Assembly (NCBI RefSeq): GCF_902652985.1
Contig: NW_022979591.1
Location: forward strand, 62,001-126,000
Source of the DNA: Pecten maximus
Taxonomy: Eukaryota
Direction of reading: 5' to 3'
Length of the DNA: 64,000 nucleotides
The notes beneath the pieces are model-generated. The model searched no databases and was not told where the DNA came from. It saw nothing but the letters and a program-made list of their open reading frames with translations. Positions 3 through 41,520 of the stretch are shown here, piece by piece. How positions within the stretch are numbered: position 1 is the stretch's first letter; each line of letters starts with the position of its first letter. The position numbers were made by a program, and so were the translations under genes.

Positions 3-3000
3 GCGAACCAGCGCGCTTTATTTGGCACACGCTCATCACATTTTCCGAGTAGACAGGTGGAGTTCGCTGAAGGCACCAAACCCGGGGACGGTGAGACACA
101 GCAGGAGATTATTAAAATGCTACGCGATGAGGTAAATGATCTCAAACGGTCGCTTACGCGTGGTGGGACAGCTAACTCACCGTACTACCAGCCTTGGCCC
201 CCACCTCCATACCACAATCAGGGTGGAGGTGAGGTGGTATCTCCGTATTACCCGCCGGCGGGGGATCCACGTTGGTATCCTCCGTATCGCGAAGGGAATC
301 GAAATCCCGACCGAAGACCTCGATCTCCCGGGTACGACAGTTCCCCGCGGCGCTTCCAACGGTCAACGGATAATGACAGCCGTCAATTTCTGCCTAGGGA
401 CCGGGATCGTTCCCCTACTGCTGACCGGAAGACGTGGGACCGAGGACGTAACTCTACGCCACCAGGATGGAGTAATGGTAGGAGCCAGGGCAACACGGAA
501 GACAGCCGCGTCCCGGTAAACAATTCCATGTCCCCAGACCGCCAGAAAAGCTTTCCTACGCGGTCCCGCTCACCGTCACCCGCGAATAAGGGATCAAGGG
601 ATTCATCCCCTCATAGGGAAATAAAGTTAGTAGTCTCAGAAGGGAGTAGTCTGACCATACCTGTGACCTTGAATGGGACAACCATAAGGGCAGTCGTAGA
701 TACAGCCGCCACCATGACGTTAGTCCGGAGAGGATTACTGGACCACCTGAACGGGCCGTTAATACTTGGAAAGCGCGTACAGCTCCGAGGGTTCACCGGC
801 AACGTGGAGAACGTGTGGGAAATAAAAGATCTACTCATCGGCGTGGGAGACATAGTAACCCCCTGGACGGTATGTGAAGCACCGATTACCGACGACATGT
901 TGCTGGGGGTAGACTTTTTAGCCAAAAACAACTGCGTTCTGGATATGAACTCCGGGAGGCTCCTGATGGCGGATCAGATAATTCCCCTCACCCCGTATAG
1001 GGAGAACAAACAGAATACCACTAAGGTGTCGGCGACTCAGACCACCACTATCCCTCCAAACTCCATAGGATTTTGCAATGTAGCCTGGGATAAAACCGTC
1101 CAGCAGTCAGCCATGATCCAGCCTCATTCCAGCCCAATAGGACCGCTACTCAGCAACACATTTGTAGCCTCGGGAGTGGACCATGCTATAATGAGAGTGG
1201 TGAATGATTCCCTGAAGTCCTTTAAAATTAAAAGGGGGAAGGATGTTGGGAAACTGGAAACCGTGGAGCTACTTACACCACTTCCGGCACGGGAGCAAAG
1301 AGAAGTTCGGAGTGCCCCAGCTTCTGACCAGGAAAATAGGATACCAGAATTTCTACGAGATCTAATCAGTCGGTCAAGCCAGGAGCTGAGCCTCAGTCAA
1401 CGACGGGAACTAGAAGACTTACTATCGGAGTTCCAAGATACGTTCGCCAAACATGATCTGGATATAGGGTGTTTACAGGAGATAACACACAAGATTGACA
1501 CAGGCTCCGAGGACCCCGTTCGGCAGAGAATGAGGAGGACCCCTGCTCATTTCCAGGACCAGGAACGGGAACACCTGGAGAAGATGCTAACCGCTGGTGT
1601 TATCCAACCCTCAAACTCGGAGTGGTCCTCAGCCCCGGTGTTGGTGAGGAAAAAGGACGGAAGCCTAAGGTGGTGTATCGACTACCGAGCCTTAAACGAC
1701 AAAACCGTCAAAGACCGGTTCCCATTACCCAACATAGACGACTGCCTGGACTCGCTGAAGGGGACCAAGTACTTCTCAACGTTGGACATGGCCTCCGGTT
1801 ACTATCAGATAGTCCTTGACGAGCAAGACCGGAAGAAGACGGCGTTTATAACCCGGTACGGCCTATTCGAACACACCAGAATGGGTTTCGGGCTGTGTAA
1901 CGCCCCAGCAACGTTTCAGCGTGCCATGAACCTTGTTCTGCGGGGACTAACTTGGTCCGAAGTATTAGTGTATCTGGGCGACATAGTCATCCTCGGTAAG
2001 AACTTCCCAGACACTCTCAACAAGCTAAGGAAAGTCTTGGAACGGTTCCGCCAGTATGGGTTAAAGCTCAAGCCCAAGAAATGCGAGCTATTCCGGAAAG
2101 AAGCTGTGTTCCTGGGTCGCCTGGTCAACGAGCAAGGAGTCTCCATTGACCCTAAGAAGATGGAGGCAGTAAAGTCTTGGACGGTTCCCACCGACAGGAT
2201 TAAACTCATGTCCTGGGATTTGCGAACTATCATAGGAATCATGTTCCCAACTACGCCGGGATTACTCAACCGCTCTATGAGCTAACAAAGCTGACAGTAG
2301 ATTTCCGGTGGGGGGAGGAACATCAACAAGCGTTTGAGCAAGTCAAATCAGCCCTGTGTGGTGCACAGTGTCTGTCATACCCAGATGGTGAAGGGGAGTT
2401 CATACTCGACACCGATGCCTCGGACACCACCATAGGAGCAGAGCTGTCACAAATACAGGACGGGGAGATCAAGGTCATCGCCTATGCTAGCCACGTACTG
2501 ATTCCCGCTCAGCGTAAATACTGTACCACCAGGAAAGAGTTGCTGGCAGTGGTGAAGTTCTGCCGGCATTTCCGTCATTACCTCCTAGGCAGGAAATTCT
2601 TCGTACGCACGGACCACAACAGCTTAGTCTGGCTTACTCGGTTCAAGCATATCGAGGGTCAGCTGGCTCGCTGGCTCGAGGAACTGGCCCAATTTGACAT
2701 GCAGATACTCCACAGGCCTGGGAAAACCCATGGGAACGCCGATGGCCTTTCCCGGATTCCGGACACCAGAGGAAGTTGCAATTGCTACCAGGCGGGAACG
2801 AAAGTGGAGAATCTACCGTGCGGAGGGTGCCAGTTCTGCCAGAGGGCGCACCAGCAGTGGGAGAGGTTCAGCGAGGATGTAGACGACGTAGTCCCCCTTG
2901 CTCATCGCAATTTCTGCTCCCAGGAAACCCAGGAGCTCCAGGGGAGTATCAAGCGGGCGACAGCCTCACATTTGGATGCAACCTCCTCGGACGAGGACGA

Positions 3001-4693
3001 CTCTGACAACGAGGGGGACCCCTCAGGAAGACCTGACACAGTCGTTAACTGGATGGAAGGATTATCCAGTGAGACCCTGGGTAAACAACAAACCCAGGAC
3101 CCCTGCATCGCGCCAATCTACCACTGGTTAGACCAGAACATCGAACCGACAGAAGGAGAACTATTCTCGTATGGTCGATCCGTGAAAGCTTTGTGGTTGC
3201 TACGCGCCATGTTATCCATCAGGCAGGGAGTGCTGTACGTCGTTCCAGAGGGACACCAACGTCCCAGGGTGGTTCTCCCACAACAACTCCAAGCGATGGC
3301 CTTGACCTGTGCCCATGATCACACCGTAGCGGGCCATATGGGGGAGAACAAGACCTACAAAAGACTGAAACACCATGTCTGGTGGCACACGATGAGGTTG
3401 GATGCTAAACTGCATGTCCGTTCCTGTACCACATGTACCCGCAATAAGAAAACTAGGAAGCCTAGAACGAGCTTAGGAACCTTCCACGCAGGTTTCCCCA
3501 TGGAGAGGGTCCATGTGGACATACTGGGACCTTTCACACCCAGCAAAGCCGGAAATCGATACATCTTAATGATGGTAGACCAGTTCACTAAATGGGTCGA
3601 GTTGGCCGCGCTCCCGAATCAGTCCGCGGAAACCGTCGCGTATAGTTTTGTCGAACAGATTCTGTCCACATTCGGGTGTCCTCTCCAGGTACACACAGAC
3701 CAAGGCAGTAATTTTGAGAGTCAGCTGTTCACCGAGCTGTGTCAACTGCTAGAGATTACCAAAACCCGCACAACACCCTACCACCCGAGTTCAAACGGAC
3801 AGGTGGAACGCCTAAACCGGACAGTACTGCAGATGGTGAGATGTTGCATACAGGGACAGGATGATACTTGGGACTACTACCTCCCAATGATCAAGATGGC
3901 TATGCACGCAACTGAGAACAGAAGCACGGGATTCACCCCAAACATGCTAATGCTGGGACGGGAGGTGTTTCAGCCTTTGGACCTGATGGTGGGTTCACCA
4001 CCGCCTAAGGCGGAGACGTCCCACCAATGGGTTAGGCACCTCACCGAGTCATTTTCCCGTATACACGAACTAGCTCGACAACACCTAGGACGCACACAGC
4101 GCCGACAGAAGAGAGATCACGACTCAAAACTGACAGAGAACATATTTCGGGTGGGAGACATAGTATACAAAAGAGATTCATCCACCAAAGTCGGGAGGAG
4201 CTCCAAGCTCAAGCCGCCATGGCTGGGACCATATCTAGAAGAAACATGCAAACACCCAGTCTACAAGATCAGGAACCGAAGAGGGGCCAAGTATTGTCAC
4301 CACGATCGCTTAAAGCTCTACGCGGGGGATACGTTTCCCATATGGCTACGTCGCCTAAGACACAACCTCCTACCGGAGGCCGCGTACGATGATCCCTCGC
4401 GGACGGAAGTACCCTCGGACGAGGAGGACATAGACCCGTGTAACGCGAGTTCAGGGGAGGACAATGACGCTCCGACGGCGAGTCGTGGGGGGAAACACCC
4501 CGGAAGCGGTAGTAACACACCGCCAAGTGTGGTGTCCCCGAAAAAACCATCAACAGGCCCCGGGGTCTCGAACCGCTCGAATACCGTTGGCTCTCTCGAT
4601 AGCATTTTGAGGGGGGACCAGAATAAACCAGTAACACGTACGGGGAGACAAACCAGACAACCCCGTAGATTTGACAACTACTTCCTACCCTAG
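3..4693 (+). pseudogene. pol: gag-pol polyprotein (gag tail, aspartic protease, RT, RNase H, integrase), frameshifted near 2212
   Basis: Protease VDTAA; RT LDMASGYYQ and MGFGLCNAPATFQR, with catalytic YLDD changed to YLGD. After the shift the frame reads LGFANYHR...FILDTDAS...RKELLAVV (RNase H). Integrase HHCC, VHVDILGP, HTDQGSNF, NGQVERLN. Confidence 0.92.
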
Positions 4694-4851
4694 GTTACAC
4701 TACGGGAGGGGGGTAGGTAAGTTAGGCAAGCGAATACAGGTGGTGTGTGTAGGCACAAATGCAGGTGGTGTATAGGAGTATATAGATAGAAAATGCTACT
4801 ATTCCGGTCCATACAATGCAACTCTCAGTCAATTCTGTTGCAGGACTACAA

Positions 4852-7181
4852 ATGGATATCCTCGAGATACACCACAGGGAAGATGGGCTCGAGGACCTCC
4901 TTAGGGTCCGACTCCTCATTTGGAGTCGGAGACTTCCTCGCCCCCAGGGTCCGTCCGTGCTCCCCTCGCAGAGCCGGAGAACACGGACCTCGAGGGCGAC
5001 AACATTCCCCCTGAAACGTCCGGGGGGGATACCCCTTCACCAACCCGGGGCCCCACTCCCACTAAAACATCGGGCCTGCCTTCTGGGGAGCCAGAATCTG
5101 ATCCCCAGGAGGCCAGTCCAGAGCCCCGACTGTATCCCCGGGGGATACCCTTCAGGACTGCTGATTGCCCGGACGGGCCACTGGCTGTCCCGAAGGTGCC
5201 CCTAGGGGTACCGCTGCCCACCCTCAGGCTCATGGAGGAAATGAAGGCCTCCGCGGTTCCATTGGAACCCCGGGTGGCACCTTCCATGAGCCACCCCACA
5301 TCCGGTCCAGTTCTCTCGACCCCTGCGGAGAAAGCATCCCTGCTAATACCCGGGGTGATCCCCGCGGGAGCCGAGGGGACATCTGCACCAGGAAGCGCTT
5401 CCTGGGGATGGGGAGACGCCGACCGTGTCCTCCACCCTAGGAAGAGGAGGAGATCCCGGAGGAGGCGGGGTAACACCCCCAAATCCGGGCTCCCCGCTTC
5501 AGAGTCTCCCCTGTCCAGCCCTCCCATGCAGGGAGGGGGATTAGGAGGGACTCCGGGCCCAAATCGACCTTTGCCCTCGCCGGGCCGCCCTCCTATACAA
5601 GGAGGGGGTTCGGCGAAAACGCACAAGAGAAATCAACAGCGGGCCCGTAAACGGGAGAGGGAGGCCGCGTCCAATGCACAGTTTGGCTTCGCCGTTAAGC
5701 CTACAGCATTGCCGGCGGCCTCCCTAGCCGGGAAGCGCCCAGAATGGCCTCTGGGATCCCGGCCGCGCCCGGCAAACACCGACGGTGATTCAGTCACCGT
5801 CCGTGTCTGCCGGGATGGCGAGTTGTGCCCCCTTTGCCATAGGGAGGTGACCAACCTTCGGTCCCACGCGCTGGAAGTTCATTTGAACTTCCTAGCCAGC
5901 GTGGACGGTGGTTGTTTCACCTGCCGGCAGGGGGGGGGGGGGGGGGGCCTCCAGGATCTCCCACTTAAATGGCCATTCTGGTCATCGTGGGACCCTGGAG
6001 GAGAATGTGGCCCCGTGGATCGCGGGTCTGAGACGCATGCTCTGCGCTCAGGCCCACGATTGCGGGTGCGAGGAGGTCGGGGAGCTGTTAGGCCTGATTA
6101 AGGGCTTACACCTCCCTACAGAGGAGGGGCCTTCCGGGGAATTCTCTTTGCGAGAAGGGGAGGTGGCGGAGGCCATCAACTCCGAATTCCAAGATCCCCG
6201 GGATGTCTCCCCCTCGCCTCCTCGGTCCGTTGGGAGTCTCCTCTATTGGAGGCTCCAGCTGACCATTTTGGGCAAGATGCCCCCACACCTGAGGGAGGGC
6301 TACCGTGAGTCCGGGCGCTTTCTGGTCCCGGGCTCCGGTGTTCCCCCGACTAGATCTTCCCGAGTGGCAGTCTATGACTGCCACTTCCACCTCGACGCCC
6401 TCCTAGCTCGGACAGGAGGCAGGTCTTTCGCCGAGTTGGAGAGGGCTGAGGATGGAGGGGGGAAGGCAGAGATCACCCTACTCGGGGGGTAGCTAACTAC
6501 GCCTACCCGAGGGGTTGGTCACTGATGAGGACGCAGGTCCAGGGAGATACCAGGATCGTGGTATCCGTGGGCCTGCACCCTCATCAGGTGGGGGAGGGCC
6601 AGCACCTTCTACCATTTCTGAGGTGCTTGGACAACTCGGCCTGCGGGGCGTTGGGGGAGGTCGGGATAGACCTCACCACCAACTGCGCCTGCCGGCCGAG
6701 ATGCAGAGATCCAGTCGCCTGCAGGAGGGGTCAAACGGAAGGGCAGGAGGTCGTTTTGACCACGGTCCTTCAAAGGGCAGTGGTCAGGGCCTCCCTACCG
6801 TTGGTCCTTCACTGCAGGGACGGGGGAAGCGGCCAAGCGGCCGCTTCGGCCCTGAAATGTATTCGCCAGGTGCCCGGCGCCACCGAGCTTGTGATACATT
6901 GGCACTGGGAGAGGTACCTCCCAAACCTGTACCTGGGGGTGACGGCTCTGTCCCTCAGGACCGAAGCCTCTCGCCGGGTCTTGAGGGAGCATGACTCCAG
7001 CAGACTGCTATTGGAGTCGGATGCTCCCTATCTGGTGCCTTCTGGGGCAGGGGAGGGGCCCAACACTCCCTGGCTCCTGGGGCACGTGCTCCGGGGGTTG
7101 GCCGGTCTAAGGGGGGAGGATCCAGGCCAGCTGGCGGTGGTGCTGAACACCACTGCCAGGAGGGTCTACTCCCTCCCATAG
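4852..7181 (+). pseudogene. tatD: Accessory gene at env position: disordered N-terminus, C2H2-like zinc fingers, TatD-family nuclease (~6367-7181); frameshifted
   Basis: ORF pieces 4920-6101, 5908-6492 and 6525-7181 join across G homopolymers (~5930-5948, 6484-6489). TatD motifs DCHFHLD, VGLHPH, LGEVGID, LHCRD, LLESDAPYL, NTP; zinc finger CPLC..HALEVH. Splice-acceptor-like ctgttgCAG (4843) precedes ATG 4852. Confidence 0.85.
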
Positions 7182-16950: not shown

Positions 16951-18409
16951 CCGAGTCGTGGCTAGTAAGCATTATAGCATTATATTCCAATAATAGATTG
17001 TTGATGCAATTATAGTCACTTAAAAATGCAATGAAAACACAAAAATGATAGAATCTGCATTGTTTTATTAGTACCGAAACGACCTACCGAAGTCCCGAAA
17101 AATCTCGCGTATGTACCGAAACGACCCCGAGACTTTTCGGGACTCCCGAAACGACTTGCTACCGAAACGACTTGTTACCGAAACGACTAGCATTCATCGA
17201 AGCAGGGGGTCTTACCTGGGGACCATACTTCCACCTGTACATGTGTTTACACCTGTATAAATATAACGCGGGGGGTCTTGCCCAACGGCCATGTTTGTTT
17301 ACCTGTGGATGTTCACCTGTATTATTTGGCTATATTTCCGAGAATAAATACGGCCCCAAGAATCATTATTTCGTACCACAAACCCAATAAAAATAATGTG
17401 TGTAACAACAAGATCGCTTTACCGAACATTTAACAGCGACATTTTACGTGTTGAGTCGATTTTCCAGCATAAAATAACGTACATTTTATATTGAAATAAC
17501 AGGTGATTTTTGTCTATGGTCATGTAACATCATGTTTTTAGGCAATTACGTAAGAAATTGAAGATAACTTGAATGGAAATATAATCTTAAATGTTAATAC
17601 TTACGTTATGCGTTGATATATACAGTTGTCGGGATGTAAATATGTCGGAAACAGCGAGTTAGCGGATCAAAATACGATTTTCTACGTAAGGTGCTGATGA
17701 CACCTTAGGCGGCCATGACAGTTTTGCACACCAGGTGGCGCGGAACTAGAAATAGGTCATATTTTCAATTTATATTCGTCCGTTTTATTTTTGTTATGAA
17801 AATCCGTAAATTTACATGTAATCGGTAAATTTGTACAACCCAGTACATCAGTTAGTCTAGACTGGATTACCTGCCGTAGTTTTTCTACTCTCCGCTAGGC
17901 TTCGCTTCGAAAATACAACGACAGGTCAGGGCTATCGATCCTGTCATTTTGATTGGCCGATATAAATAAAACCGGAAAGACATCCCCACGACGGATGTCG
18001 TCTGCATCAATACAATATTGATATGGAACTTTGCGTTTGGAGCAACCCTAATTTTGATGAAATGTATCATTCTACAATATTTAAGTGGGACGGAGGTCGA
18101 GATGTTTGACACTACGTTGTTGTATTCTTTGTGTGCAGTACTCGGTCGTTTTTTCTACGTCACTGTTTGAACCAAAGTGATTGTTACGTTTACTGCTCAT
18201 CAGTCCTTTGTGTAACTACTAAATGTAAGTCATTGTAATACAAGTCTGCCTCAATGGACCATGTTCTATATGTAACACATAATAATGGCGACTGGTCATT
18301 TTTTAGCAAAACTGAATTTCTCTATAAAAACAAAAATTGCATTATTCAATATTAATGAAAGTCGTTTGAAGTGTTATAATTACCTGAAACCTGGACAATT
18401 TCAGTGTGT

Positions 18410-18795
18410 TGTAGTGTCTCGGGCCGAGTTGACCTGATTACTTACGCCGGAAGTGCGTCACGGTTCACTGGCCCGTGCCAGATAAAGATCTACCCCGTGT
18501 ACAGTCTCTTCACACCTGACCGGCAATCAGACAACACGTGTGTTAGACCATCTCTCGTTTTTAACGGAGTCAGTATATCTCTACGTAAGTAGTGTCAGTT
18601 ATCTTAGTGCTCCGGGCTTTTAGCTAGGACACTAAGCCAGTATATTCTATTGGATAAGTATTTGACTGCTGTATCATCACCGTATCCTGACCTGTCCAGC
18701 GACCCGTGGTGATATAGATCGACCTCCATTGTAAACCAGATAGCGTGACCAACAGCGAGGTAACTAGCTTGTGGTGTAACAGCAACGTTACTTTA
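18410..18795 (+). repeat. 5' LTR of element 2
   Basis: Direct repeat of 24883-25268; TG...TA termini; contains a GTAAGT donor-like site (~18585). Confidence 0.95.
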
Positions 18796-18796
18796 A

Positions 18797-18809
18797 TGGT
18801 GTCAGCAGT
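18797..18809 (+). promoter_or_regulatory. Primer-binding site, tRNA-Leu-like
   Basis: TGGTGTCAGCAGT, 1 nt after the LTR; resembles the tRNA-Leu PBS TGGTGTCAGAAGT. Confidence 0.6.
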
Positions 18810-19412
18810 ATTGGCTAGTAATTGATAAATTAATGTTTATTCATTGAGTCCTGTATTTATCAATTTTCGCGCAGTTTTCCTGATTTTTCTGTGGTTTCAA
18901 TTACGATTTTATCGAATTGTTCCTCAGCCAGCAGTCACGTGGTTTACAGATTCATGATACCGTTCCTGTGTGTTATTTTATAATACGAGGATTAAATTTG
19001 TATCATTTTCATTGCACAACATTATTCTACACCACATATTCCTGTGTTATTTTATGATACGGAGTATTTTTTACGGTGGAATTTTGTATTTATTGTATGC
19101 CTATTTTTTGAATAAAAAATATCCAACCTCTACTGTTTCATCAAAATGGCGTCAGTTCCGGTTAAAATGGCGTCGCTTCCGGCTAGAAACATAAACACGG
19201 CAACTTTTGAAGATATGGTCCGGTATTTACCTGGAATAGGGGAGACACGTGCAAGGACCCTAATTAATATGAGATTTAATTATGGGAAATAAACCGCAGA
19301 GCACATTACAGCGGCTTTTGGTGGCAGAAAACCAAGTCAGGAGTTATGGGACTCTATTTATTTTGGAGAGCCAGGCAGGCAGTCCCATAAGTCACCGGAG
19401 TTTGCTGATTTA

Positions 19413-21215
19413 TTGGACATGGGGGAATTCCTAACCCCAGTTCTCGCCCCACCCCAGGTACCTATTACCACATCGCAGCCGTCAATACAGAGACATGGGA
19501 CTCCGGAGTTTTCAGAAATATCGGAATTTGATCCCATGTCTCGCGCCAACATGGTTGGGTTCCCTAATGTAGGGAATCCTACGCGTATTTTATATAACAC
19601 GGGTGTTGACGATACAGACAAAAAATGGTCACCAGTTAATACTTTGGTGAAACCTGTCAACAGCATGGATTTAATGCCAATGGACTATCCGGATGTCCCG
19701 GTATTTGACCCCAAACAGGAAATGGGGGCCATTCCCAAGTCTAAGCAGCCAGAGTCAGCCAAGTTACCTATACCTATGAAGTTGGAGCCGCCATCTTCAT
19801 ATGATGAGATGACTAGGCATCGACTTAGTTCACTCTGGTTAAATCGACCCGAAGTATCCAGTCAACCCCCACCCAGTCATGCGCCCAGCTACTACCCAAC
19901 TGAGGACAAAGCTAGTGTCCAAGTATCGAGGTCGGACAAGACACCTCAAAGGTCATGTAAGTCTTCGAGGTCACCTAGCAAAGGGACATCGTCTTTCAGG
20001 TCTCTTAAACCAAGATCATCAAGGTCATCGAGGTCACCTGGAAAGCCGATGCATCATCACAAAACTAGGTCACCATCAGATACTAGAGCCAGTTCAAAGG
20101 GTAGGTCTGGACACCATAGGCGCCGTCATGACTCCAGGTCAACATCCAGGTCTAGAAGGCAACCTAGTTCTTCTAGGCACCGAGGATATTCGCCATGTCG
20201 TCATGACCGTATGAGCACTAGCCGGAGTGTTCGGTCTCCTTCAAGGAAAGGTTACAGCGATCGCTCTGTTTCGCGTCGCCACAAGCGCTCTGTTCCGCGT
20301 CATCGCAGTCGCGGTCATCACAATCGCTCCAGTCGTGAGAAGTCGAGATTTTATTTCGACACCTCAAGTTCTGGTAGCGAGTCCAGTGGAGATGATTATC
20401 ATAGCTTGGGACCACGGGGTAAGCCACAGAAGCTACCGAAAAACCTCAAGTATGATGGTTCAACAAACTGGCTGTCATTCAAGCAGAAGTTTGACAGTTT
20501 CCGTACGGTCCTTCACTGGTCAGAGGGAGAATGCCGTGACTACCTGACGTGGGCATTAGATGGTAAGGCCTTGGATTATTTCACGATGAATGTCGGCATG
20601 GGACGGGAATGTTCTTTCCGTACAATTATGAAGAAATTGGAGGGACGTTTTGGTGCTAAGGAATTACCCGAGACGTCGACGGTCAAATTCCAACAGGCCA
20701 CTCAGAAGAATGACGAGTCACTCGATGACTGGGCCGATAGAGTTATGACCCTCGCCACACCCGCATTTCGTCACCTACCGGAGAAACATGCCCGTTCCGA
20801 GGCCATTTCCAGATTTTGCCAGGGGAGCACTGACAAAGACGCAGGGAAACATGTGTTTCTCATCAGACCACGGTCCATGGAAGGAGCTCTGAACCTGATG
20901 AAACAATATCAGTATGTTAGCCAGGCCGTGGATGGAAAGAAGAAAAAAGGAAGGGAGGAAACCTCAGTCAATGCAGTGAAGTCTTCTCAAGATGAGATTA
21001 AAGCTCTAATTGAGAAGGAGGTCAACAAACTTGCAGCTAAACTGGGGAAGACCAATCTACAGGCTCAAGGACAGTCTGGTTCCAACGAAATAACCTGCTT
21101 CTTTTGTAAAGGAGCAGGCCATATGAAAAAAGACTGCCGCCGCTACAAAAGGTGGTGTGAGAAGAACCCAGACAAGGTCAAGAAGGCAAAGAACTCTACC
21201 GATTCTTTAAACTAG
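19413..21215 (+). CDS. gag: Gag of element 2 (Arg/Ser-rich linker, capsid-like region, CCHC zinc knuckle)
   Basis: KYDGSTNWLSF capsid-like motif, QKNDESLDDWADRV, CFFCKGAGHMKKDC. True start codon uncertain. Confidence 0.9.
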   Translation: MDMGEFLTPVLAPPQVPITTSQPSIQRHGTPEFSEISEFDPMSRANMVGFPNVGNPTRILYNTGVDDTDKKWSPVNTLVKPVNSMDLMPMDYPDVPVFDPKQEMGAIPKSKQPESAKLPIPMKLEPPSSYDEMTRHRLSSLWLNRPEVSSQPPPSHAPSYYPTEDKASVQVSRSDKTPQRSCKSSRSPSKGTSSFRSLKPRSSRSSRSPGKPMHHHKTRSPSDTRASSKGRSGHHRRRHDSRSTSRSRRQPSSSRHRGYSPCRHDRMSTSRSVRSPSRKGYSDRSVSRRHKRSVPRHRSRGHHNRSSREKSRFYFDTSSSGSESSGDDYHSLGPRGKPQKLPKNLKYDGSTNWLSFKQKFDSFRTVLHWSEGECRDYLTWALDGKALDYFTMNVGMGRECSFRTIMKKLEGRFGAKELPETSTVKFQQATQKNDESLDDWADRVMTLATPAFRHLPEKHARSEAISRFCQGSTDKDAGKHVFLIRPRSMEGALNLMKQYQYVSQAVDGKKKKGREETSVNAVKSSQDEIKALIEKEVNKLAAKLGKTNLQAQGQSGSNEITCFFCKGAGHMKKDCRRYKRWCEKNPDKVKKAKNSTDSLN

Positions 21216-21247
21216 TAGGGCCCAGGACTACGGGCCAAGCCCCTGAG
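21206..21247 (+). promoter_or_regulatory. Candidate -1 ribosomal frameshift signal (gag/pol)
   Basis: T TTA AAC just before the gag TAG, 6-nt spacer, then stem GGCCC/GGGCC. The -1 frame is open into the protease. Confidence 0.75.
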
Positions 21248-21810
21248 CCACTTGTAGATTTAGGCCTAGATATGGATTCTATGGAGGTTTTTAACCCCAT
21301 GCCTACTACTCCCATGGTTGTTTCAACCGATCCAGCAAATGTTTTGCTAGATATTTCTTCTTCTTTACCAATTTCACAACCTGTTAACTCAGAGGCTACT
21401 GGTGCTTTTAGTACAGTAGATGATGCATTTTGTGTCACCTCTAAACCTGAGGTTGTTTATATCAATAGGATTTGTGCTAGCTCCTCATTAGTTAAGGTCA
21501 CAGTTGGAGAGGTACCTATTACAGCCAGGATTGATTCCGGAGCAGAGATGACTATTATCTCCACATCTGTATTTGACAGACTTCGGAAAAAACCTAAGAA
21601 GTTGAAAGATGTTGTAATGCACTTGGCAGACACAGAATCTTCTCTGAATGGCACTTGGATTGCGCCAATTAGTCTGAAAATTGGTTCCAGCGTGTTTAAG
21701 GAAAGCGTGTATGTGGCCCCCATCAGTGATGAAATGTTATTAGGACATGATCTCCTACACAAATGGGGCACCATCCACGATATGAAAACAGATACTCTTC
21801 TGATAGGGGA
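21212..21810 (+). pseudogene. Aspartic protease, truncated by the internal pol deletion
   Basis: ARIDSGAEMTII and MLLGHDLL motifs; jumps at ~21805-21810 into the integrase tail. Confidence 0.85.
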
Positions 21811-22215
21811 GATGTCGTGTATCTTTTAGATACTGCAGTCACCAAGGGTAAATGTAAAAAACTATGTTCCCCTTGGAAAGGACCGGGAGTTATAGTGAAG
21901 AAGATATCGCCTTACCTGTATCAAATCAAGCTTCGCAGTTCCGTTTTGGTGACCAACCATGATAGAATGGCCCCTTGTAAAGATAGGAAAATCCCTGCGT
22001 GGATCCAGACCTTTAAGACAAAAGGGGGAGGAGATGCGGAGCTACCAGACCAGAGTACAGAAGTTTTTTGTGTTTGTCGTAAACCATGGCAAGGCCGGTT
22101 CATGATACAATGTGATTATTGTCAGGAATGGTATCATGGATCTTGTGTCAACGTAACTGCTACTGAGGCACTGGATATTGACAAATACAAATGTAAGGGT
22201 TGCTGTAATAAGTAA
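21808..22215 (+). pseudogene. Integrase C-terminal (SH3-like/GPY-F) region fused to a PHD finger
   Basis: GDVVYL...KLCSPWKGPGVIV...NHDRMAPC, then FCVCRKPWQGRFMIQCDYCQEWYHGSCVNV...KYKCKGC (C4HC3). Confidence 0.88.
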
Positions 22216-22245
22216 TCATGTGCTCTGTTCTGATTATTTACAGAT

Positions 22246-24496
22246 ATGGCAAACAGAGGGACCACTCAGCCCATTGATGAGCAGGCAGCAGCGTGTTTAC
22301 GCCGAGGTGAGCTGTTTCAGCCCCCTACTGCATTCATCGAACGGATGGCCCTCTGTATGATGTCGGATCAACGCTTTGACGAGATCGTCTTGGATATGTG
22401 CAGTTTGGCAAAGGGTAAGATGGGTAAGAAGGGAGCTAACCGGAGACAACTTGAAGGTTGGCTGAAGAAGGTCGCGGAAACCTTGGACTCGCTGCAGCTC
22501 CGTTCATTCGCCTGGATTGAGCAGCACGTCGCCCCGCTGAGTCGTCGCCCTAGAGTAGGACCTGTACCTGCAGAGTCGACGGCTTGTTACCGTGACATTC
22601 GCCTGTCTACCGACCCCAATCTGGAGCGCAGGATCGAGGATGCAGTTACCACTGAGGCCCCTGCAGCATCGGAAGATGACCTGGACCTCTTGGGGGATGA
22701 CCCGATGGATATTGAGCTCATGCCCCCAGTGGATACCATGGATACCCCCGTGTTGGAGGAGCCATTGATTGGATCGCCTGCTGTATCCTCATCCCAGCGA
22801 CCAGATAGCCAGACTGTACCGTCAGGTCGCGTCTCTGCCAAGGGTCCAGCCAGTGTGCGTGAGGATTTTATCCCCGTCTCCCGTGCTAAACCCAAGGTAA
22901 GTGACCGGCCATCCAGGAGTACTCGCCGGACCAGTCCTCGTAAGAAGAGTTCCCGTAGGAGTCCCTCACCTGTCCGTCATCGTTCCAGTCCGCGGAGAGC
23001 TGCCAGAAGCCCTTCAGTGTCTGCCCCTATGCGTCGGACGAGCCCCCGTAAGCGCCCTCACAGCCAGTCAACTGGACCTATTCCCAGGAAGACGGTCCAC
23101 GTTGAGGAGCCCCGTACCACTCGAGTTGTGACGTCTGCCGAGACGAGGAGGAATAGTGGTAGAGGTTCCGAGAGGTTCTGGATCTACGTCGCGAAGCCGA
23201 GCGCCGAGGGTCAGACACTGTGTGATTCCTGACTGCAAGGAGGTTGGGAGCTACGCCAAGCCCCACGCGTTCAACCATCATTTGCCGAGGGTTTTTGACG
23301 AGCGCCTGCCCCCTGCAGCAATCAAGGTTCTTCGTGGACGGAAGGAGGCCCTTTTACAAGCCGCTGTATGGCTTTTGAGAAGAGCCGTGGACAACCTGGA
23401 CGACCTTGTGGAGTACGTGGAGATGCAGCACCTGTTGACAACATCATCGGAGAAGCTCAGCTTTTCAGACTGCCAGATAGTGGGGATGAGGGCATTTTGT
23501 GGCTATTTGAGTGTACCATGTCCAGACAACTTCACGTTGGAACCGGTGAACTCTGTAGCCGTCCTCCTCCACTGGAAGGTTTTGTTGCTGATAGCTGCCC
23601 GGATCCCTGCTACCGAGCGAGAGTATTGGAGGACGTTATTTCCTGCCCCTGAGGAAGTGGGAACCCGAACCCCTCGGGCGTTTGATGCTCACTTCCATCT
23701 TGACCGCACCCTGAAGGCCATGGGATTACGACTGGACTCTACGTTCCAGTCCGTGTTGGATGGTACCAGGATGGACAAGGGAAAGGAGGTAATCGTCGCC
23801 GGGACTTGTGCCTCTTTCTGCGACCCGGAGACTTATCCAACCACGGATAGTCTGAAGACCCTACCAGCGGATATGGAGGTCGCAGTAGGGGTACACCCCA
23901 AGAAAAGATACTCGAGCTCGGAGTTGGATCGTGTCATCAGGAAGCTGAAGGACCTCGTACGACAACGCAGAGTGACAGCAGTTGGCGAAGTTGGTGTTGA
24001 CCACTCCGTACCACCGGAGCAGTGGCCGCAGCAGTTAGTCATGTTGGAGAAGATTCTACCATTGGTGGAGCCTCGACATGTCTTGGTTCTCCATTGTAGA
24101 GGGATGTCCGGAGATAGTGGAGCAGAAGCATACCTCCTTCTTCTACACTACGTAAAGAAGGCAGTGCCTGAAGACCAGCGGATATATCTCCATTGTTTCA
24201 ATGGGGATTCCTATGTCCGTGAGCAGTGGTCTAGTGCTTTTAGGAATCTGTACTTCGGATTTACCAGCATGGCTGCAGGATTCACCCCACCTCAGGTTCG
24301 CGCCTTGAAGTGGATCAACCCTGAGAGAGTGTTGTTGGAGACCGACGCCCCCTACTTCAACCGGTCAGGCCGCAAGTGGTCTGCACCCAACCAATTGTAT
24401 TGGACGGCGGAGGCTGTAGCAAAACACCTCAGTTACACGGCGGAATCCCTGCTGAATGCGACCGTAACCAACGCTCAACGACTGTTTCGTCACTAG
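22246..24496 (+). CDS. tatD: Accessory protein (~750 aa, one frameshift near 23150): N-terminal region, RS-rich linker, C2H2-like finger, TatD nuclease (~23675-24496)
   Basis: Overlapping ORFs 22246-23232 and 23156-24496. Motifs DAHFHLD, VGVHP, VGEVGVD, LHCRG, YLHCF, YFGF, LLETDAPYF, NAQRLF. Acceptor tttaCAG (22243) just before the ATG. Confidence 0.9.
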
Positions 24497-24882
24497 GAAC
24501 TCGGAAAGGACAGTTAGGGACGGGGTTGTACCTCAGTATTTTACTAGGTAGTGAGTCTATTTTATAGGCGACCCGTACCCTCATCATCGAGGATTGTATT
24601 CTAGACATGGAGGTCGGGATTGCATCCATGTATTTTACAGGATTGTGTGTCCTTTTAGGACGACCCGCGCCTCATAACCGGATTTGACTGCAAGGGATTT
24701 TATCCCTACTATTTCCCCCTTTTTGGAGGAAGCAACCCAGTAGTAACTTAAGTGACTTCATCGCAACGCTTTTAGTGTGCAGAGTCAAAATTTAGGAACT
24801 TGATCAAGACACGGAAGATCTTTGTATATACCATTACCAACCCTCCGGCCATAAAGGACTTTCATTATAAAGTTGGGAGGAA

Positions 24883-25268
24883 TGTAGTGTCTCGGGCCGA
24901 GTTGACCTGATTACTTACGCCGGAAGTGCGTCACGGTTCACTGGCCCGTGCCAGATAAAGATCTACCCCGTGTACAGTCTCTTCACACCTGACCGGCAAT
25001 CAGACAACACGTGTGTTAGACCATCTCTCGTTTTTAACGGAGTCAGTATATCTCTACGTAAGTAGTGTCAGTTATCTTAGTGCTCCGGGCTTTTAGCTAG
25101 GACACTAAGCCAGTATATTCTATTGGATAAGTATTTGACTGCTGTATCATCACCGTATCCTGACCTGTCCAGCGACCCGTGGTGATATAGATCGACCTCC
25201 ATTGTAAACCAGATAGCGTGACCAACAGCGAGGTAACTAGCTTGTGGTGTAACAGCAACGTTACTTTA
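24883..25268 (+). repeat. 3' LTR of element 2
   Basis: Preceded by PPT AAAGTTGGGAGGAA; matches the 5' LTR. Confidence 0.95.
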
Positions 25269-26079
25269 GTGTGAACAGTTTACTTTCAAATTCAAAAGAT
25301 GTTGTTTGCGTGTTACCGACAGGATATGGGAAATCTTTGATATTTGAAATTGTACAAAAAATTACTAACTCTACTGTCATTTTGATAAATCCACTGAACT
25401 ATATTACTGCCGAGCAGGTAGACAGGTATATGCCAAATCTGTATGTGTTTGTCCTGAACTCCATAAAAAGTTTCTTTATTCTTCAAAAACATTCATTTTT
25501 GATTGGACACCCGGAGCATTTCCTGCAGGATGATATATTCAGTGTGTTACGTTCGGACGAGCTCCAGCATAATGTTAAATTCATAATTATTGATGAAGCA
25601 CACTGCATTCATCTTTGGGGCGAGGAATTCCGACAAGATTTCATGAAAATACAAAAACTGAGAGCAGTATTTCCAAGTGGTGAGTATAGTCACATATATA
25701 TACTGTCAGTGTGATATAGTACATTTGTAATAAGGAGATAAGATAATGATAGATTTATATGATTTGTATGGTAAAATACAATGTTTATTTCCATGTTGAA
25801 AATCACATAGTGCAAAATTTAAGTAAAAAGTTTTGATTGTATAAGCTGTATTTCTTTTCTACAGCATGATTGTTACTGGGTTGGTCTAATTAATACTTAG
25901 TCATTCTAGTTTTACAATGGATAAATACTTTAGCAGTTCCATTACAATATCTATAATGTGTCACATACAATATATAATGCAATAATACATTTTAAGCAAT
26001 AAGTTGTTTTCAATCAACTGATCAGGGGTAACAATATGTTTCTAATGATTGATTGATCAATCTGTGTAATGAGATATAT

Positions 26080-26170: not shown

Positions 26171-28977
26171 ACAGGTTATCAAATTTATGAAGGAACAAAC
26201 ATGAATAATTTATGTCATGTACAGAATACTGATTTCATCCATATATTATATTGTATATATTAATAAATGTGTTTTTCACACATACATAACAATATGTACA
26301 ATATTTTTATCATAACAAAAGTCAAAAACATATTTATACATGTACATGGGTACAAAGACATGAGAAATAAATTTAATATACATATCTTTCAATTTTCATT
26401 CTTAGCAAAAGTTTTAGCACTGACTGGAACTGCTGGTAAAAAAACCATTCAATTGATCACATGTAATCTTTTGATGGATGACTTTGTTCTGATAAAATCC
26501 TCGTTGTGCAGAAATAACATCAAATTTAACTTTCAAAAACGCCCTGCAAATAAAGACAATGAAAGTTCATATTTATCTATCATTCAACCATTAATACAAC
26601 AACTTGTAAGCAACAAGAATTTCCCTAAAACTGTTGTGTATTCAAAATTGAAATGGTGTGGATTTGCATACGAGGAATGCATCAGGATAAGCCATGATTT
26701 GAAAAGAAAAGTGGCCCAGTTTCACTCACCTTGTACACTGGATGTAAGTTCTAAAGTTGAATAATTAACAACCCAATATTTCCTGTATTAAGTACAGTTT
26801 CATTAGGTTTTTACTGTTTAATTTCATACCTGTCAATCTTCCCATTTTAAATTTGAGGAATTGATATATGCAAATCAGTTTAATTAAAAAAAAAAAAACA
26901 ATTCATTGATTCATTCCAGGATCAGGTTGCATGGAAGCAAACTTGTTTTGATTTCAGAGATTTTGTTTCAATTCACATTTTATACCGGCATGCATTTGTT
27001 ACACTGAACTTATTATTTGGTTGCTATAATAATCAATTAAGTCTGTTTTAACTGTTAATAATGTTCATAATGTAAAAAAAAAATGAAAATCTCCCTGCAA
27101 AAAAGTCAGAAAATAAATTTTGTAGTTTTTACTAAATCAACCAAATAAAATTTGTAGCTTTTCTTATTAGACCGATGCAGTGATATTGTTGTTCATTGTG
27201 AAGTCACACATGTGAAAGACATTTAATTAATGTAATGGAACCCACATTGACAATATCGATGACCTCAATCAACTAATGAAAAATTAACTTAATTAAGACT
27301 TCAAAAAGGTCAACCCTTTATATAGAAACTGCATTGCATGTTAGTGATAAAGGCATGCACATAATAAATAAAATTTATACATAAGGCCACTATCTATGTC
27401 AAAATGTTGTTTTGATAATTTTGATCAAATATGTAATATATAAATTTATTTAGATGAAAGATGATGTTTTGAAGAACTTCAGCTGCCCTGATGGAGACCT
27501 TCGCCTGATCTTTGCCACAGAAGCTTATAGTATGGGCACAGATGTTACAGACATAAGGAGAATTATACATCTAGGTGTTCCTTCATCCTTGGAAAGTAAG
27601 ATATGCATGTACATCTTAATTTTATGACGGTTATTAAGAATTTTGAATAAAATGACTTATAATGCTAGATATGTATGATTATGGGGTGGGGATCTCAAAT
27701 GCTTCAAACATATAGCCCAGAAATGAAGTCAAGACTCAACATGATTGTGTTTAAAGAAACCTGAAGTCCCTCGGGGGTGGGGAAAGACCCCTGGGCCAAT
27801 TTTTACATCAGGATTGTGTTCATCTCTTGATGCCCAGCAATGCTATTTATGGTTATGGGGTGGGGATCTCAATAGTTTTAAAAATACAAGAAGTCCTTTA
27901 TAGCAATATAGTCAAATTGCTCTCTTTTGCCCTGCTCATTTTTGCAATGTCATCCATTGTTTAGGTCCAGAAAAGAAATGTAAGCAATTATCCAATAATT
28001 TCTTTATATTTACAGTATATTTGCAAGAAGTGGGGCGAGCAGGTTGGGATGGACAAATGGCGGAGGCCATTTCTTACTTCAACAACAGGGACTTGGCCTC
28101 AGATGTAGTTGATAAATCTGTAAGAGATTTGTGCACCACAAAAACATGCAGGTGGACTTTTTTGTGCATTTATTTTAATTGTGTAAAAGATGAGCACCCA
28201 GTGCTTCACAACTGCTGTGACAGGTGTTGTCAGCACTGCAAGTGTAGGGAATGTTTTAATCTCAATTCAGATTTGGATATGAATGAAAATACTGCATTCC
28301 CAACAGAGGAGATGTTTCTTGGTGTTGACTCAGTAGTAGCTAGCAAAATTTATGGAACTCTTGTAGAGTATTTCTGTGAAGAAAACTCATTGCACAAAGT
28401 CCCAAATCCATCTCTGTATACTGGCTTGACAAACAGTTTAGCATCCTCAATTGCAAACAAATATCCAATTTTTCATAGTAAGCAGTCAGTTTTATGGAAA
28501 GCTAGTCATCTAAATGACATTTATGCAGAAAATATTGCATCCATTGTTACACAAATAGGTACAATGTAATGTATCATCGTTCAACTGAAATAATATACAG
28601 TACATGTATATATTAAGTAGGCTTCTAATATATAAAGTAAGGCTTCATTTCATTGTATATCAAATACATTGTATATATGATCAAAGAAATGATATTGACA
28701 AATCAGAAAAGCAAATTGTCTTTACAAACCAGTCTGGCTCTTGAAGATTTAGGACACAAGTATAATATATCATTAAAAAAACACTTCAAAGGAATAAAAC
28801 AGTACATAATGTCACAATATATGTTCAGCTAATCCGACACTGAATGCCCTTTTGTAAGTAAAATCATCTTTTACAGAATACAGTGATTTTATTAAACATG
28901 TATAGCTCACAATAATCATATATATACATCATAAAATACCAGCTGGTAGTGTATATGTATTTACCACTTTAGCCAAG

Positions 28978-29375
28978 TATGAAAATTGTCTACATCAAGA
29001 CAAATATGAAAATTGTCTACATCAAGACAAATATGAAAATTGTCTACATCAAGACAAATATATAAATTGTCTACATCAAGATGAATATGAAAATTGTCTA
29101 CATCAAGACAAATATATAAGTTGTTTACATCAAGATGAATAAGAAAATTGTCTACATCAAGATGAATAAGAAAATTGTCTACATCAAGACAAATATATAA
29201 ATTGTCTACATCAAGATGAATATGAAAATTGTCTACATCAAGACAAATATATAAATTGTCTACATCAAGATGAATATGGACATTGTCTACATCAAGATGA
29301 ATATGAAAATTGTCAACATCAAGACAAATAGGAAAATTGTCAACATCATGACAAATAGAAAAATTGTCTTCAATA
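28978..29375. repeat. 27-bp minisatellite (~15 units) between the convergent Academ genes
   Basis: Unit AAATTGTCTACATCAAGA(C/T)(A/G)AATA(T/A)(G/A)A. Confidence 0.9.
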
Positions 29376-29486
29376 TGATAAGCAAACATTGTTTTTCACT
29401 GTTCAACATCAAAGAAGCTATTTCTCTGATTGCACTGGGTTTTTTTTTATCAAATCATGAATTGTCTCTTTAATAATCATTTTTGC

Positions 29487-40424: not shown

Positions 40425-41382
40425 TGTGACAAGCATATTTTCACCTATCCAGCTGTTTGTTTATTTGTACAAATGTTATACAGTTCATAATGTTACAATA
40501 CCTGTTTACTTCCGTGTTTTGATACAACCTCGGTGTCAATAATAAGCTTGTAGCATGGCGTGATTAGAGCGCGTAACATTCAAACATTTTAAAGACAAAG
40601 ATATAGTATAGGAAAGTTCCGGCGGGAACATAGACGGCGCTACCTTCGGGTTTGAGAGGGTATATAAAGCCGTCTGCTAGCTTGTCAGTTAGACCAGACT
40701 TCGATGACTGACCAGGCAGCATCACTAAAAAGGTACGGTAATAAACTACGAGTTGAAGTGAGTGAGCAGACTGTAGACGTAGCTGAAATAGTGCTTTCCC
40801 TCAGTCTTGCTCTCTTCACATGCATCCCGTAGGTTAGAGCGGTCGTATAGTAAATAATATACGGGCCCTGCTGTAGTGAGCAGACGCTGTAACGCGTGCT
40901 CTGGAGTGTTCTGAGCACTGGTACCTGAGGCTGGCTGTGACTGTGAGCAGCGGTGCATTGTAGCTGTTGTGTGTGTGCGTACTGATCGGTGTTATAGGAG
41001 TTATGTCCCTTTGAGCGTACCGGCGTAGTAGTCTGGTGGGAGTACTCGGGGATCGAGTACTGGGGTCTGACATAGCCGTAACATTACTTGCTCTCTCTTA
41101 TAATTTACCTTGTATTAATAGTTGATATTTAGTGTTGTTTAAGTAGTGAGCAGATATAGGTAGAGACGTTTTGCCCTTTGCTCTACATATAGTCAATATC
41201 TGTAATTATTGTTAGTTAGTTCTGCTCAGTAAGGGTGTATATATTTTATTATTGCTACCATTCTTGAGCAAGGCATGCTCAGGATACATTTTTGTATATA
41301 TCGGCACTTTTTGAGCACCCGGTAAGAGCACATATAAGGGATCCCAAGAAGTAACTTGGGTACGGACCCCCGACACGTTACA
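40425..41382 (+). repeat. 5' LTR of element 3
   Basis: Direct repeat of 47888-48845; TATA GTATATAAAG near 40660. Confidence 0.96.
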
Positions 41383-41387
41383 AAAAC

Positions 41388-41405
41388 TGGTGGCAGCGGT
41401 GGGAT
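41388..41405 (+). promoter_or_regulatory. Primer-binding site, tRNA-Leu
   Basis: TGGTGGCAGCGGTGGGAT, complementary to a tRNA-Leu 3' end. Confidence 0.85.
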
Positions 41406-41520
41406 CCCTGTGACTTGAATTTATTTTTATTTTTATCAATGTAGATATCAGTTGATACTGGTAGATATATTTTGAGCAGTATTTTGTGAGTAATTAATAT
41501 TTGTTAAATTACCTAAAAGA

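What the first reader, a model, noticed from the sequence alone, without database searches (positions are those of the whole stretch)
22246..24496. Gypsy retrotransposon lineage carrying a TatD-family nuclease gene in the env position
Seen: inside the LTRs of element 2, after pol, a gene ends in a TatD domain with all metal-binding motifs (HxH in DAHFHLD, H in GVHP, E in GEVGVD, H in LHCR, H in LHCF, D in ETDAPY). Element 1, whose LTR is unrelated apart from the TGTAGTG start, has a homologous gene in the same place. Both share the layout disordered region, C2H2-like finger, motif SVAVLLHWK/SVGSLLYWR, TatD. Established: TatD proteins are metal-dependent 3'-5' exonucleases/AP endonucleases, and human TATDN2 is reported to act on R-loops. 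TatD is not a standard LTR-retrotransposon domain, and I know of no description of this system. Inference: an old, selected accessory nuclease. Possible roles are cDNA-end processing or proofreading for RT, RNA:DNA hybrid removal, clearing cytosolic cDNA to avoid innate sensing, or restricting competing elements.
Basis: partly seen in the sequence, partly recalled or inferred. Interest (0 to 1): 0.92.

Follow-up and report, generated by a model that had tools for sequence, protein, structure and literature searches.

The report
Gypsy retrotransposons carrying TATDN2-like nuclease gene
An old lineage of jumping genes in shellfish carries, besides its usual two genes, a third gene under long-term selection for a nuclease related to the animal RNA-cutting enzyme TATDN2, probably made from its own spliced message; what it cuts has not been tested.

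Summary
Real. 22246-24496 is ORF3 of a 6.86-kb Gypsy LTR retrotransposon (identical 386-bp LTRs, 4-bp target duplication). It ends in a TatD domain (Pfam E 3e-32) with every metal ligand, after a CCHH-finger/helical domain with no fold match found. This copy is defective: RT, RNase H and integrase core are deleted and ORF3 is frameshifted. Genome-wide, 85 of 88 TatD stretches belong to element ORF3 families; 17 of 20 tested lie between paired LTRs. Four contigs from other hosts repeat the layout. Between families synonymous sites are saturated while the protein stays 74-80% identical. The nuclease groups with animal TATDN2, not with the bacterial TatDs sampled. An acceptor-like CAG precedes the start in 10 of 10 lineages (8 pass a strict rule; background 4%), suggesting an env-style spliced mRNA, though the protein is no envelope. 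Close RT relatives lack it, so it is accessory. Likeliest role (inferred, 0.45): a nuclear RNase clearing the element's RNA from R-loops or structured RNA. Ten literature searches found no description; rotifer DEDDy-exonuclease ORF3s are the precedent. This scan noted the same layout earlier in a sea-urchin genome (e1-7881919).

The parts
18406..18409 (.). left target-site duplication GTGT
   Evidence: matches 25269-25272
18410..18795 (+). 5' LTR of element 2, 386 bp, TGTAGTG...CTTTA, identical to the 3' LTR; holds a donor-like GTAAGT
18797..18805 (+). primer-binding-site-like TGGTGTCAG
   Evidence: sequence; tRNA partner not identified
19146..21215 (+). gag: N-terminal helix-hairpin-helix motif (stop shortly after it in this copy), capsid-like region, CCHC knuckle
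   Evidence: HHH_3 E 4e-5, under cut-off
21206..21212 (+). TTTAAAC slippery-site-like heptamer in the gag/pol overlap
   Evidence: sequence; frameshifting inferred
21161..21811 (+). pol remnant: aspartic protease, ending at a deletion of about 3.9 kb (RT, RNase H, integrase core missing)
   Evidence: comparison with copy L059
21812..22215 (+). pol tail: SH3-like integrase C-terminus and PHD finger
   Evidence: PHD E 9.3e-10
22226..22243 (+). predicted splice acceptor (pyrimidine tract + CAG) two bases before the ORF3 ATG
   Evidence: not shown by spliced reads
22246..24496 (+). ORF3 (family protein P0001, 751 aa); frameshifted near 23140 in this copy
22288..22630 (+). ORF3 N-terminal conserved domain (about 115 aa, W..W..DIR motif); weak or absent in element-1 family
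   Evidence: no usable atlas hit
22631..23203 (+). ORF3 low-complexity Arg/Lys/Ser/Pro-rich linker
   Evidence: R+K 18%, S 16%, P 15%
23204..23674 (+). ORF3 middle domain: C-x4-C-x9-H-x4-H finger plus helical domain ending in NS..LLHW
   Evidence: (pLDDT 93, pTM 0.89)
23672..24493 (+). TatD nuclease domain, HxH (group II) type
24869..24882 (+). polypurine tract AAAGTTGGGAGGAA
   Evidence: sequence
24883..25268 (+). 3' LTR of element 2
25269..25272 (.). right target-site duplication GTGT
3..4693 (+). element 1: end of gag and pol (protease, RT, RNase H, integrase; no PHD), frameshifted
4816..7181 (+). element 1 ORF3 in four frame pieces, ending in TatD
   Evidence: 94-98% to P0201
8026..8265 (+). 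element 1 3' LTR, followed by target duplication ATAT

Best explanation
Shown (about 0.97): ORF3 is a stable accessory gene of an old Gypsy lineage (HhH-gag, pol usually ending in a PHD finger), made of a variable N-terminal domain, a basic low-complexity linker, a zinc-finger/helical domain and a catalytically complete TatD that came from the animal TATDN2 lineage. Inferred (about 0.8): it is translated from a spliced subgenomic mRNA, LTR or leader donor to the acceptor just before its ATG, as a separate non-membrane protein. Inferred mechanism (0.45 overall): it works in the nucleus as a 3' exo/endo-RNase like TATDN2; the linker and finger domain bind nucleic acid and the nuclease removes RNA from R-loops or structured RNA formed by the element's own 10-kb transcript, keeping the element transcribed and blunting RNA-guided silencing.
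For: Context: 85 of 88 fetched TatD stretches best match an element ORF3, 61 of those 85 with same-strand pol upstream; 17 of 20 have paired LTRs, 15 with 4-bp duplications; contigs L149, L151, L227, L228 from other hosts repeat pol-PHD-ORF3. Selection: families C versus D 74-80% identical in TatD with dS saturated or 2.7-4.5 and dN 0.13-0.19; subfamily pairs omega 0.15-0.23; E106, D225 and R143 invariant in 41 of 41, other ligands in 39-40 of 41. Origin: element+TATDN2-like rows split from bacterial rows at 100/99 and SH 99; element profile scores named TATDN2-like proteins 159-225 bits, bacterial TatDs 96-136, PDB TATDN1 65-67, TATDN3 58; FC[DN]P cysteine in 42/47 element, 42/44 host-like, 1/14 bacterial rows. 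Splicing: strict acceptor in 8 of 10 ORF3 starts versus 73 of 1748 control ATGs and 1 of 7 gag starts. RNA role: human TATDN2 cuts hairpin RNA and R-loop RNA, needs its disordered N-terminus for R-loop binding, has little DNase activity (PMC10711561 passages); pol keeps RNase H motifs DTDAS, KELL, RTDH in 5 of 5 families; rotifer Gypsy elements captured a different 3'-5' exonuclease into the same slot (PMC5408684 passages).
Against: No activity, localisation or spliced read was obtained. The element TatDs sit on long branches (25-40% between distant families), so substrate may have shifted; most TatD proteins act on ssDNA and AP sites (PMC10085689 passages). The TATDN2 biochemistry is from one human study. 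The trees disagree on nested versus sister placement, the 67-row careful tree did not finish, TATDN1/3 were scored but not in any tree, and the bacterial rows were those that resembled the query. For families A and E1 I chose the second Met after seeing the acceptor, which inflates the 8 of 10. RT relatives without ORF3 also have several intact-looking copies, so any benefit is conditional.
Confidence: 0.45

Rival explanations
1. Particle-associated helper of reverse transcription: ORF3 is packaged with Gag and removes RNA primers or displaced RNA, trims cDNA 3' ends or proofreads for RT.
For: TatD family members are 3'-5' exonucleases on ssDNA/RNA (PMC10085689); strand transfer creates three-stranded intermediates (own knowledge); second RNase H domains were gained by other LTR lineages (recalled, no call); gag carries an HhH nucleic-acid-binding motif.
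Against: ORF3 is not fused to Gag or Pol, so it has no built-in packaging route; RNase H motifs are present; TATDN2 has minimal activity on plain RNA:DNA duplex; close RT relatives lack ORF3.
Confidence: 0.22
2. DNA-repair helper at integration: 3'-5' exonuclease/AP endonuclease that cleans the gapped intermediate or damaged cDNA, targeted with the PHD-bearing integrase.
For: TATDN1, TATDN3, TatD, YcfH and YjjV have AP-endonuclease and 3' exonuclease activity; ORF3 co-occurs with a PHD finger in seven families; medaka Tatdn2 is reported needed for DNA repair in germ cells (PMC12709183 title and one passage).
Against: Family E1 has ORF3 but no PHD; TATDN2 shows only very weak AP activity; host repair normally suffices (own knowledge).
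Confidence: 0.15
3. Counter-defence or competition outside the nucleus: it destroys element-derived dsRNA/cDNA to avoid innate sensing, trims small RNAs, or restricts other elements or viruses.
For: TATDN2 cleaves hairpin RNA; a TatD has been co-opted in the QatABCD anti-phage system (PMC13434339, search listing only); accessory retrotransposon domains have been proposed as silencing suppressors (PMC6338049, part 1 of 4).
Against: No direct evidence here; basic clusters in the linker look more like nuclear signals (crude pattern).
Confidence: 0.15
4. A passenger: a captured or domesticated host gene with no role for the element.
For: Public annotations call these proteins TATDN2-like host genes; 24 of 85 stretches show no pol upstream within the 3-10 kb fetched; near-identical young copies show omega 0.6-1.2.
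Against: Intronless, between LTRs, purifying selection between families, matching RT and TatD groupings, and a middle domain found in 97 of 99 long relatives but in 1 of 83 proteins from the host-TATDN2 search; the host has its own multi-exon TATDN2-like gene (L089). High omega in young pairs rests on 3-60 changes and fits decay after insertion.
Confidence: 0.03

Closest known systems
Juno and Vesta Gypsy-type elements of bdelloid rotifers with a DEDDy 3'-5' exonuclease ORF3 (PMC5408684; passages read)
   Same: Separate enzymatic ORF3 after pol in the env slot, catalytic residues intact, a 3'-5' exonuclease, family-specific gain, activity untested
   Different: Different enzyme family (TatD versus DEDDy/RNase D); extra finger/helical domain; here purifying selection between families is shown; range includes bivalves, gastropods and a brachiopod by protein names; 'TatD' occurs 0 times in that paper's main text
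Animal TATDN2 (PMC10711561 passages; PMC10085689 passages)
   Same: Group II HxH active site, E593/E705/D707 equivalents, both signature cysteines by spacing, long disordered N-terminal region before a C-terminal TatD
   Different: Intronless, multi-copy, inside LTRs; has a zinc-finger/helical domain that host TATDN2-like proteins lack; forms its own long-branched clade
env genes of errantiviruses/retroviruses, and the spliced accessory gene CERV of Cer1 (PMC10309623, abstract only)
   Same: Third gene, apparently on a spliced subgenomic mRNA; CERV is a nuclear protein acting on the element's own RNA
   Different: No envelope family hit and no clear membrane span; an enzyme, unlike CERV; no homology to either was found in Pfam (CERV not compared directly)
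Mollusc Gypsy clades MolGy1-16 and others (PMC6238403, passages)
   Same: Likely one of these RT-defined clades
   Different: That paper's main text has 0 mentions of TatD, PHD or ORF3; clade assignment not tested, supplements not read

Membership tests
TatD_DNase (PF01026) | profile score above the curated cut-off over the whole domain | tested here: met
   112.4 bits versus 27, profile 1-253
TatD_DNase (PF01026) | metal ligands: HxH (group II), E, H, H, E-x-D | tested here: met
   39-41 of 41 rows each; group definition from PMC10085689
TatD_DNase (PF01026) | TIM-barrel fold by structure prediction | tested here: inconclusive
   single-sequence model pLDDT 41; fold rests on sequence matches to solved TatD/YcfH, profile E 5.5e-34
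TatD_DNase (PF01026) | metal-dependent nuclease activity | not testable with these tools
   needs an assay
TATDN2 orthologues | groups with TATDN2 rather than TATDN1, TATDN3 or bacterial TatD | tested here: met
   trees versus bacteria; profile scores versus TATDN1/3; TATDN1/3 not in a tree
TATDN2 orthologues | nested inside the TATDN2 clade | tested here: inconclusive
   nested (weak inner support), sister (host-like side 98/91)
TATDN2 orthologues | two catalytic-site cysteines (human C538, C656) | tested here: met
   FCDP C 42/47 and HCF C 42/47; mapping to human numbers inferred from spacing; the HCF C is also in 11/14 bacterial rows
TATDN2 orthologues | low-copy, multi-exon chromosomal host gene | tested here: not met
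   intronless, between LTRs, many copies; host gene is separate (L089)
TATDN2 orthologues | R-loop/hairpin RNase activity | not testable with these tools
   needs an assay
Ty3/Gypsy LTR retrotransposons | pol order protease-RT-RNase H-integrase | tested here: met
   family copies
Ty3/Gypsy LTR retrotransposons | paired LTRs, PBS, polypurine tract, short target duplication | tested here: met
   (LTRs end in CA or TA by family)
Ty3/Gypsy LTR retrotransposons (autonomous) | this window copy encodes RT and integrase | tested here: not met
   about 3.9 kb of pol deleted
env (envelope) ORF3 | position between pol and 3' LTR | tested here: met
env (envelope) ORF3 | spliced subgenomic mRNA | tested here: inconclusive
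   conserved acceptor-like site; no junction in contigs of 4 runs
env (envelope) ORF3 | membrane-anchored fusion glycoprotein | tested here: not met
   only TatD in Pfam; best 19-residue hydropathy 1.43-1.77 in 5 proteins, the highest inside the globular middle domain, no C-terminal anchor (crude test)
Juno/Vesta DEDDy-ORF3 elements | DEDDy/RNase D exonuclease in ORF3 | tested here: not met
   Pfam gives TatD only
named mollusc Gypsy clades (MolGy, C-clade, AB-clade, CsRN1, Cigr-1) | RT/RNase H tree position with reference sequences | not tested
   reference sequences not at hand

The most novel reading that the evidence does not exclude
A retroelement lineage took the animal germ-line R-loop RNase TATDN2, added a new zinc-finger/helical targeting domain, and uses it from a spliced mRNA as its own R-loop resolver and anti-silencing enzyme: it strips nascent element RNA from chromatin, where RNA-guided silencing would otherwise dock. 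With the DEDDy cargo of rotifer elements this would mean Gypsy elements have repeatedly gained 3'-5' RNases for the same purpose.
Probability: 0.25. Interest if true: 0.85.

Novelty: new variant of a known kind. Interest (0 to 1): 0.62.

Why it matters
It adds a new enzyme class to the short list of accessory genes that LTR retrotransposons keep under selection, and makes a testable case of why Gypsy elements repeatedly acquire 3'-5' nucleases in the env slot. It supplies dozens of natural, diverged TATDN2-like enzymes, and a well-folding 150-residue domain with no structural match found. It also corrects annotation: many mollusc 'TATDN2-like' genes, and TatD genes in one bacterial genome bin, are retrotransposon cargo.

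Tried and rejected
Single-sequence fold of the 454-aa piece: pLDDT 41, unusable. Fold searches with the middle domain: no Foldseek match at E 0.001 in PDB or viral libraries; best Z 3.5 among 48,161 chains, several weak calponin-homology-type rows at Z 2.3-3.5, too low to use; this does not show a new fold. Atlas: top score 0.78 for the middle domain, none for the N-terminal domain. Middle domain against longer proteins: 3 hits, all with TatD; weak search. Viral contigs: 65 pattern matches, none confirmed. Expression: 14 of 24 listed runs hold the stretch, only 1 on record as RNA; contigs of 4 runs cover parts of ORF3, one begins at 22244 just after the predicted acceptor, but contigs cannot show starts or transcription and no splice junction was reported; not counted as evidence. 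One origin of ORF3 on the RT tree: not shown; two changes are needed because family E1 pairs with ORF3-less L140 (91/97). HhH-gag as a marker of TatD carriers: rejected, it is also upstream of RT in ORF3-less sister families. P0255, first taken as element-type, falls among host-like rows and was relabelled. Bacterial origin or contamination: rejected by LTR context and trees. No tRNA genes in the window. Scan look-ups by sequence and by place: nothing. No complex prediction was run, as no binding is claimed.

Full report
Observation. The stated interval starts at an ATG (22246) and ends at a stop (24496). It is read in two overlapping frames, 22234-23232 and 23132-24496. It lies inside a 6,859-bp element with identical 386-bp LTRs, a GTGT target duplication, a PBS-like site and a polypurine tract. 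Compared with family copy L059, this copy lacks about 3.9 kb of pol, and ORF3 is frameshifted near 23140; L059 encodes it as one 751-aa frame identical to database protein P0001, which names as a Pecten maximus uncharacterised protein. Element 1 (start of the window) carries a homologue (E 5.7e-27) in four frame pieces, with an unrelated LTR and an ATAT duplication.

Genome-wide context. The own genome gave 106 TatD matches from 119 scored candidates, a lower bound. I classified 88 stretches of 3-10 kb that cover these matches outside the window; neighbouring matches share a stretch, and some stretches on small contigs may be haplotype duplicates. 85 of 88 best match an element ORF3 and 3 look like host exons (L089 TATDN2-like; L119; L126); 61 of the 85 have a same-strand pol match upstream, at least 3 of them weak or to an unrelated element (L035, L081, L111), and 24 have none within the stretch. 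For 20 loci chosen because pol was present I fetched the 5' end: 17 have paired LTRs (95.8-100% identical) and 15 have 4-bp duplications. Eight families emerge (A, A2, B, C, D, E1, E2, F); C-terminal identity is 53-59% within the A/A2/E2 group, 75-78% for C/D, and 25-40% between groups.

Other hosts. Named relatives come from scallops, clams, a zebra mussel, whelks, Lingula and Mya arenaria, 13 cluster members on several chromosomes; their LTR context was not seen. phmmer over 1.84 billion representatives gave 179 proteins at E 1e-30; of 169 relatives examined, 99 are 450 aa or longer and 97 of these carry the middle domain, against 1 of 83 proteins from the host-TATDN2 search. Of 80 metagenome loci and 80 genome-bin loci returned, 6 and 2 are of the element type; 4 of these 8 (L149, L151, L227, L228) show integrase or whole pol, then PHD, then ORF3; three are too short to tell and L148 has no pol in 3.3 kb upstream. 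None of the other 152 loci had a pol match. An earlier AI note of this scan (e1-7881919) reports the same layout in a sea urchin; I did not see that DNA.

Selection. Pairwise Nei-Gojobori on the TatD domain: families C versus D keep 73-80% identity with dS saturated or 2.7-4.5 and dN 0.13-0.19; subfamily pairs give omega 0.15-0.16 (A) and 0.21-0.23 (E2). Near-identical or decayed copies give 0.1-1.2 on few changes, as expected after insertion. The middle domain behaves alike (72% identity with saturated dS for C/D). Catalytic residues are kept in 39-41 of 41 aligned proteins.

Origin. With a profile of 41 element TatDs, named TATDN2-like animal proteins score 159-225 bits (16 shown), 29 bacterial TatDs 96-136, solved TATDN1 65-67 and TATDN3 58. 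In a 67-row quick IQ-TREE the 24 element rows form one clade (SH 99) inside a TATDN2-like group (SH 99); the careful run did not finish. In a 30-row careful tree without the longest branch, element rows (94/88) are sister to TATDN2-like rows (98/91), both apart from bacteria (100/99). The FC[DN]P cysteine, which by spacing matches human C538, is shared by element and host-like rows and nearly absent from bacterial rows. So the gene derives from the TATDN2 lineage or shares its ancestor; direction of capture is inferred, since TATDN2 is widespread in eukaryotes (PMC10085689 passages).

History on the element. In an RT+RNase H tree of 15 rows, the seven TatD rows from the PHD-bearing families group at 100/99 (with two unlabelled rows), and sub-groups match the TatD groupings; family E1 pairs with ORF3-less L140 (91/97), so either one old gain with losses or a second gain by recombination. 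Six RT-nearest loci without a listed TatD (L139-L144, three families) show no ORF3 domain within about 3 kb after pol; two copies of the L140 family stop matching 450 bp after pol. The seventh near locus, L145, is a family C copy with the ORF3 N-terminus. ORF3 is therefore accessory.

Anatomy and expression. ORF3 has a variable N-terminal domain, an Arg/Lys/Ser/Pro-rich linker, a middle domain and TatD. The middle domain folds confidently from a 100-row alignment (pLDDT 93), has an invariant C-x4-C-x9-H-x4-H finger, and found no structural match (see Tried and rejected). ORF3 starts just after the pol stop. A CAG lies 1-8 bases before the start in all 10 lineages examined; 8 pass a rule of at least 65% pyrimidines in the 15 preceding bases, against 73 of 1748 other ATGs and 1 of 7 gag starts; for two lineages I chose the Met after seeing the site. 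Donor-like GTRAGT sites are in the LTRs of most families, but these are common words. A spliced mRNA is likely, not shown.

Mechanism. Human TATDN2 is a 3' exo- and endo-RNase on hairpin RNA and on the RNA strand of R-loops, with little DNase, very weak AP activity and minimal activity on plain RNA:DNA duplex, and needs its disordered N-terminus to bind R-loops (PMC10711561, passages). A separately made, non-membrane, basic-linker protein of that lineage, in an element whose pol keeps its RNase H motifs, most simply acts on the element's own RNA in the nucleus. Repeated capture of 3'-5' exonucleases into this slot (DEDDy in rotifers, PMC5408684; Rrp6-like in two unchecked scan notes) points the same way. 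I put this at 0.45, a particle-bound RT helper at 0.22, integration repair at 0.15, cytoplasmic counter-defence or competition at 0.15 and a passenger at 0.03. Every step beyond sequence is inference.

Novelty. Ten full-text searches: TatD+retrotransposon, 21 papers; TatD+Gypsy+LTR, 0; TatD+transposable element+reverse transcriptase, 11; TATDN2+transposon, 4; TatD+Repbase, 5. By title and abstract start none describes this system; one (PMC6962438) was opened and only labels a gene. PMC5408684, PMC6431247 and PMC6238403 have 0 occurrences of TatD in the main text. No supplements were read, most subscription journals are not held, and Repbase, Dfam and GyDB could not be searched, so an existing database annotation is not excluded. 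Verdict: a new variant of a known kind (Gypsy with an enzymatic ORF3), solid as an observation, untested in function; interest 0.62.

Noticed in passing
window 19146-19289; L091, L095, L102, L104, L105, L228: Gag begins with a ComEA-like helix-hairpin-helix motif (Pfam HHH_3/HHH hit in 7 of 7, 2 above cut-off), also in ORF3-less sister families. One paper search gave one unrelated listing.
   Followed up: partly
window 22069-22212: PHD finger at the end of pol in seven TatD-bearing families and four outside contigs, absent in element 1's family.
   Followed up: partly
window 18410-18795; L098, L099: LTRs of families E2, C and D end in TA rather than CA; B and E1 end in CA.
   Followed up: no
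window 40425-48187: A third Gypsy element with a single 1937-aa frame ending in C2H2 fingers and no TatD; L146 has a separate C2H2 ORF after pol.
   Followed up: partly
window 25253-25714: DEAD/RecQ-like helicase fragment (Pfam DEAD E 2.3e-12) directly beside the 3' LTR; element 2 seems to have inserted into or next to it.
   Followed up: no
window 56793-62747: LINE-like element: an upstream ORF in two frames plus an unbroken 1145-aa endonuclease-RT frame.
   Followed up: no
L089:6050-9100: Host multi-exon TATDN2-like gene whose ETDAPY exon end is repeated in tandem about ten times in the following intron.
   Followed up: partly
P0242, P0264, P0272, P0257: TATDN2-like proteins joined to CCHC knuckles or to a Ulp1 protease domain; source and context unknown.
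   Followed up: no
L227, L228: Gypsy-TatD elements on contigs of a genome bin titled Sedimenticola sp.; most likely animal host DNA in the bin (inference).
   Followed up: partly
L151:1-9035: Element on a contig with 99-base identical ends, i.e. assembled as a circle with one LTR-like stretch; assembly collapse or a one-LTR circle.
   Followed up: no
window 16304-16424, 17858-17918, 53310-53368; 28897-29463: Short palindromic MITE-like repeat in three places, and a 27-bp minisatellite.
   Followed up: no
G000:C462:44293-44900 (L079): A third TatD-bearing element (family C) lies about 17 kb before the window on the same contig.
   Followed up: partly
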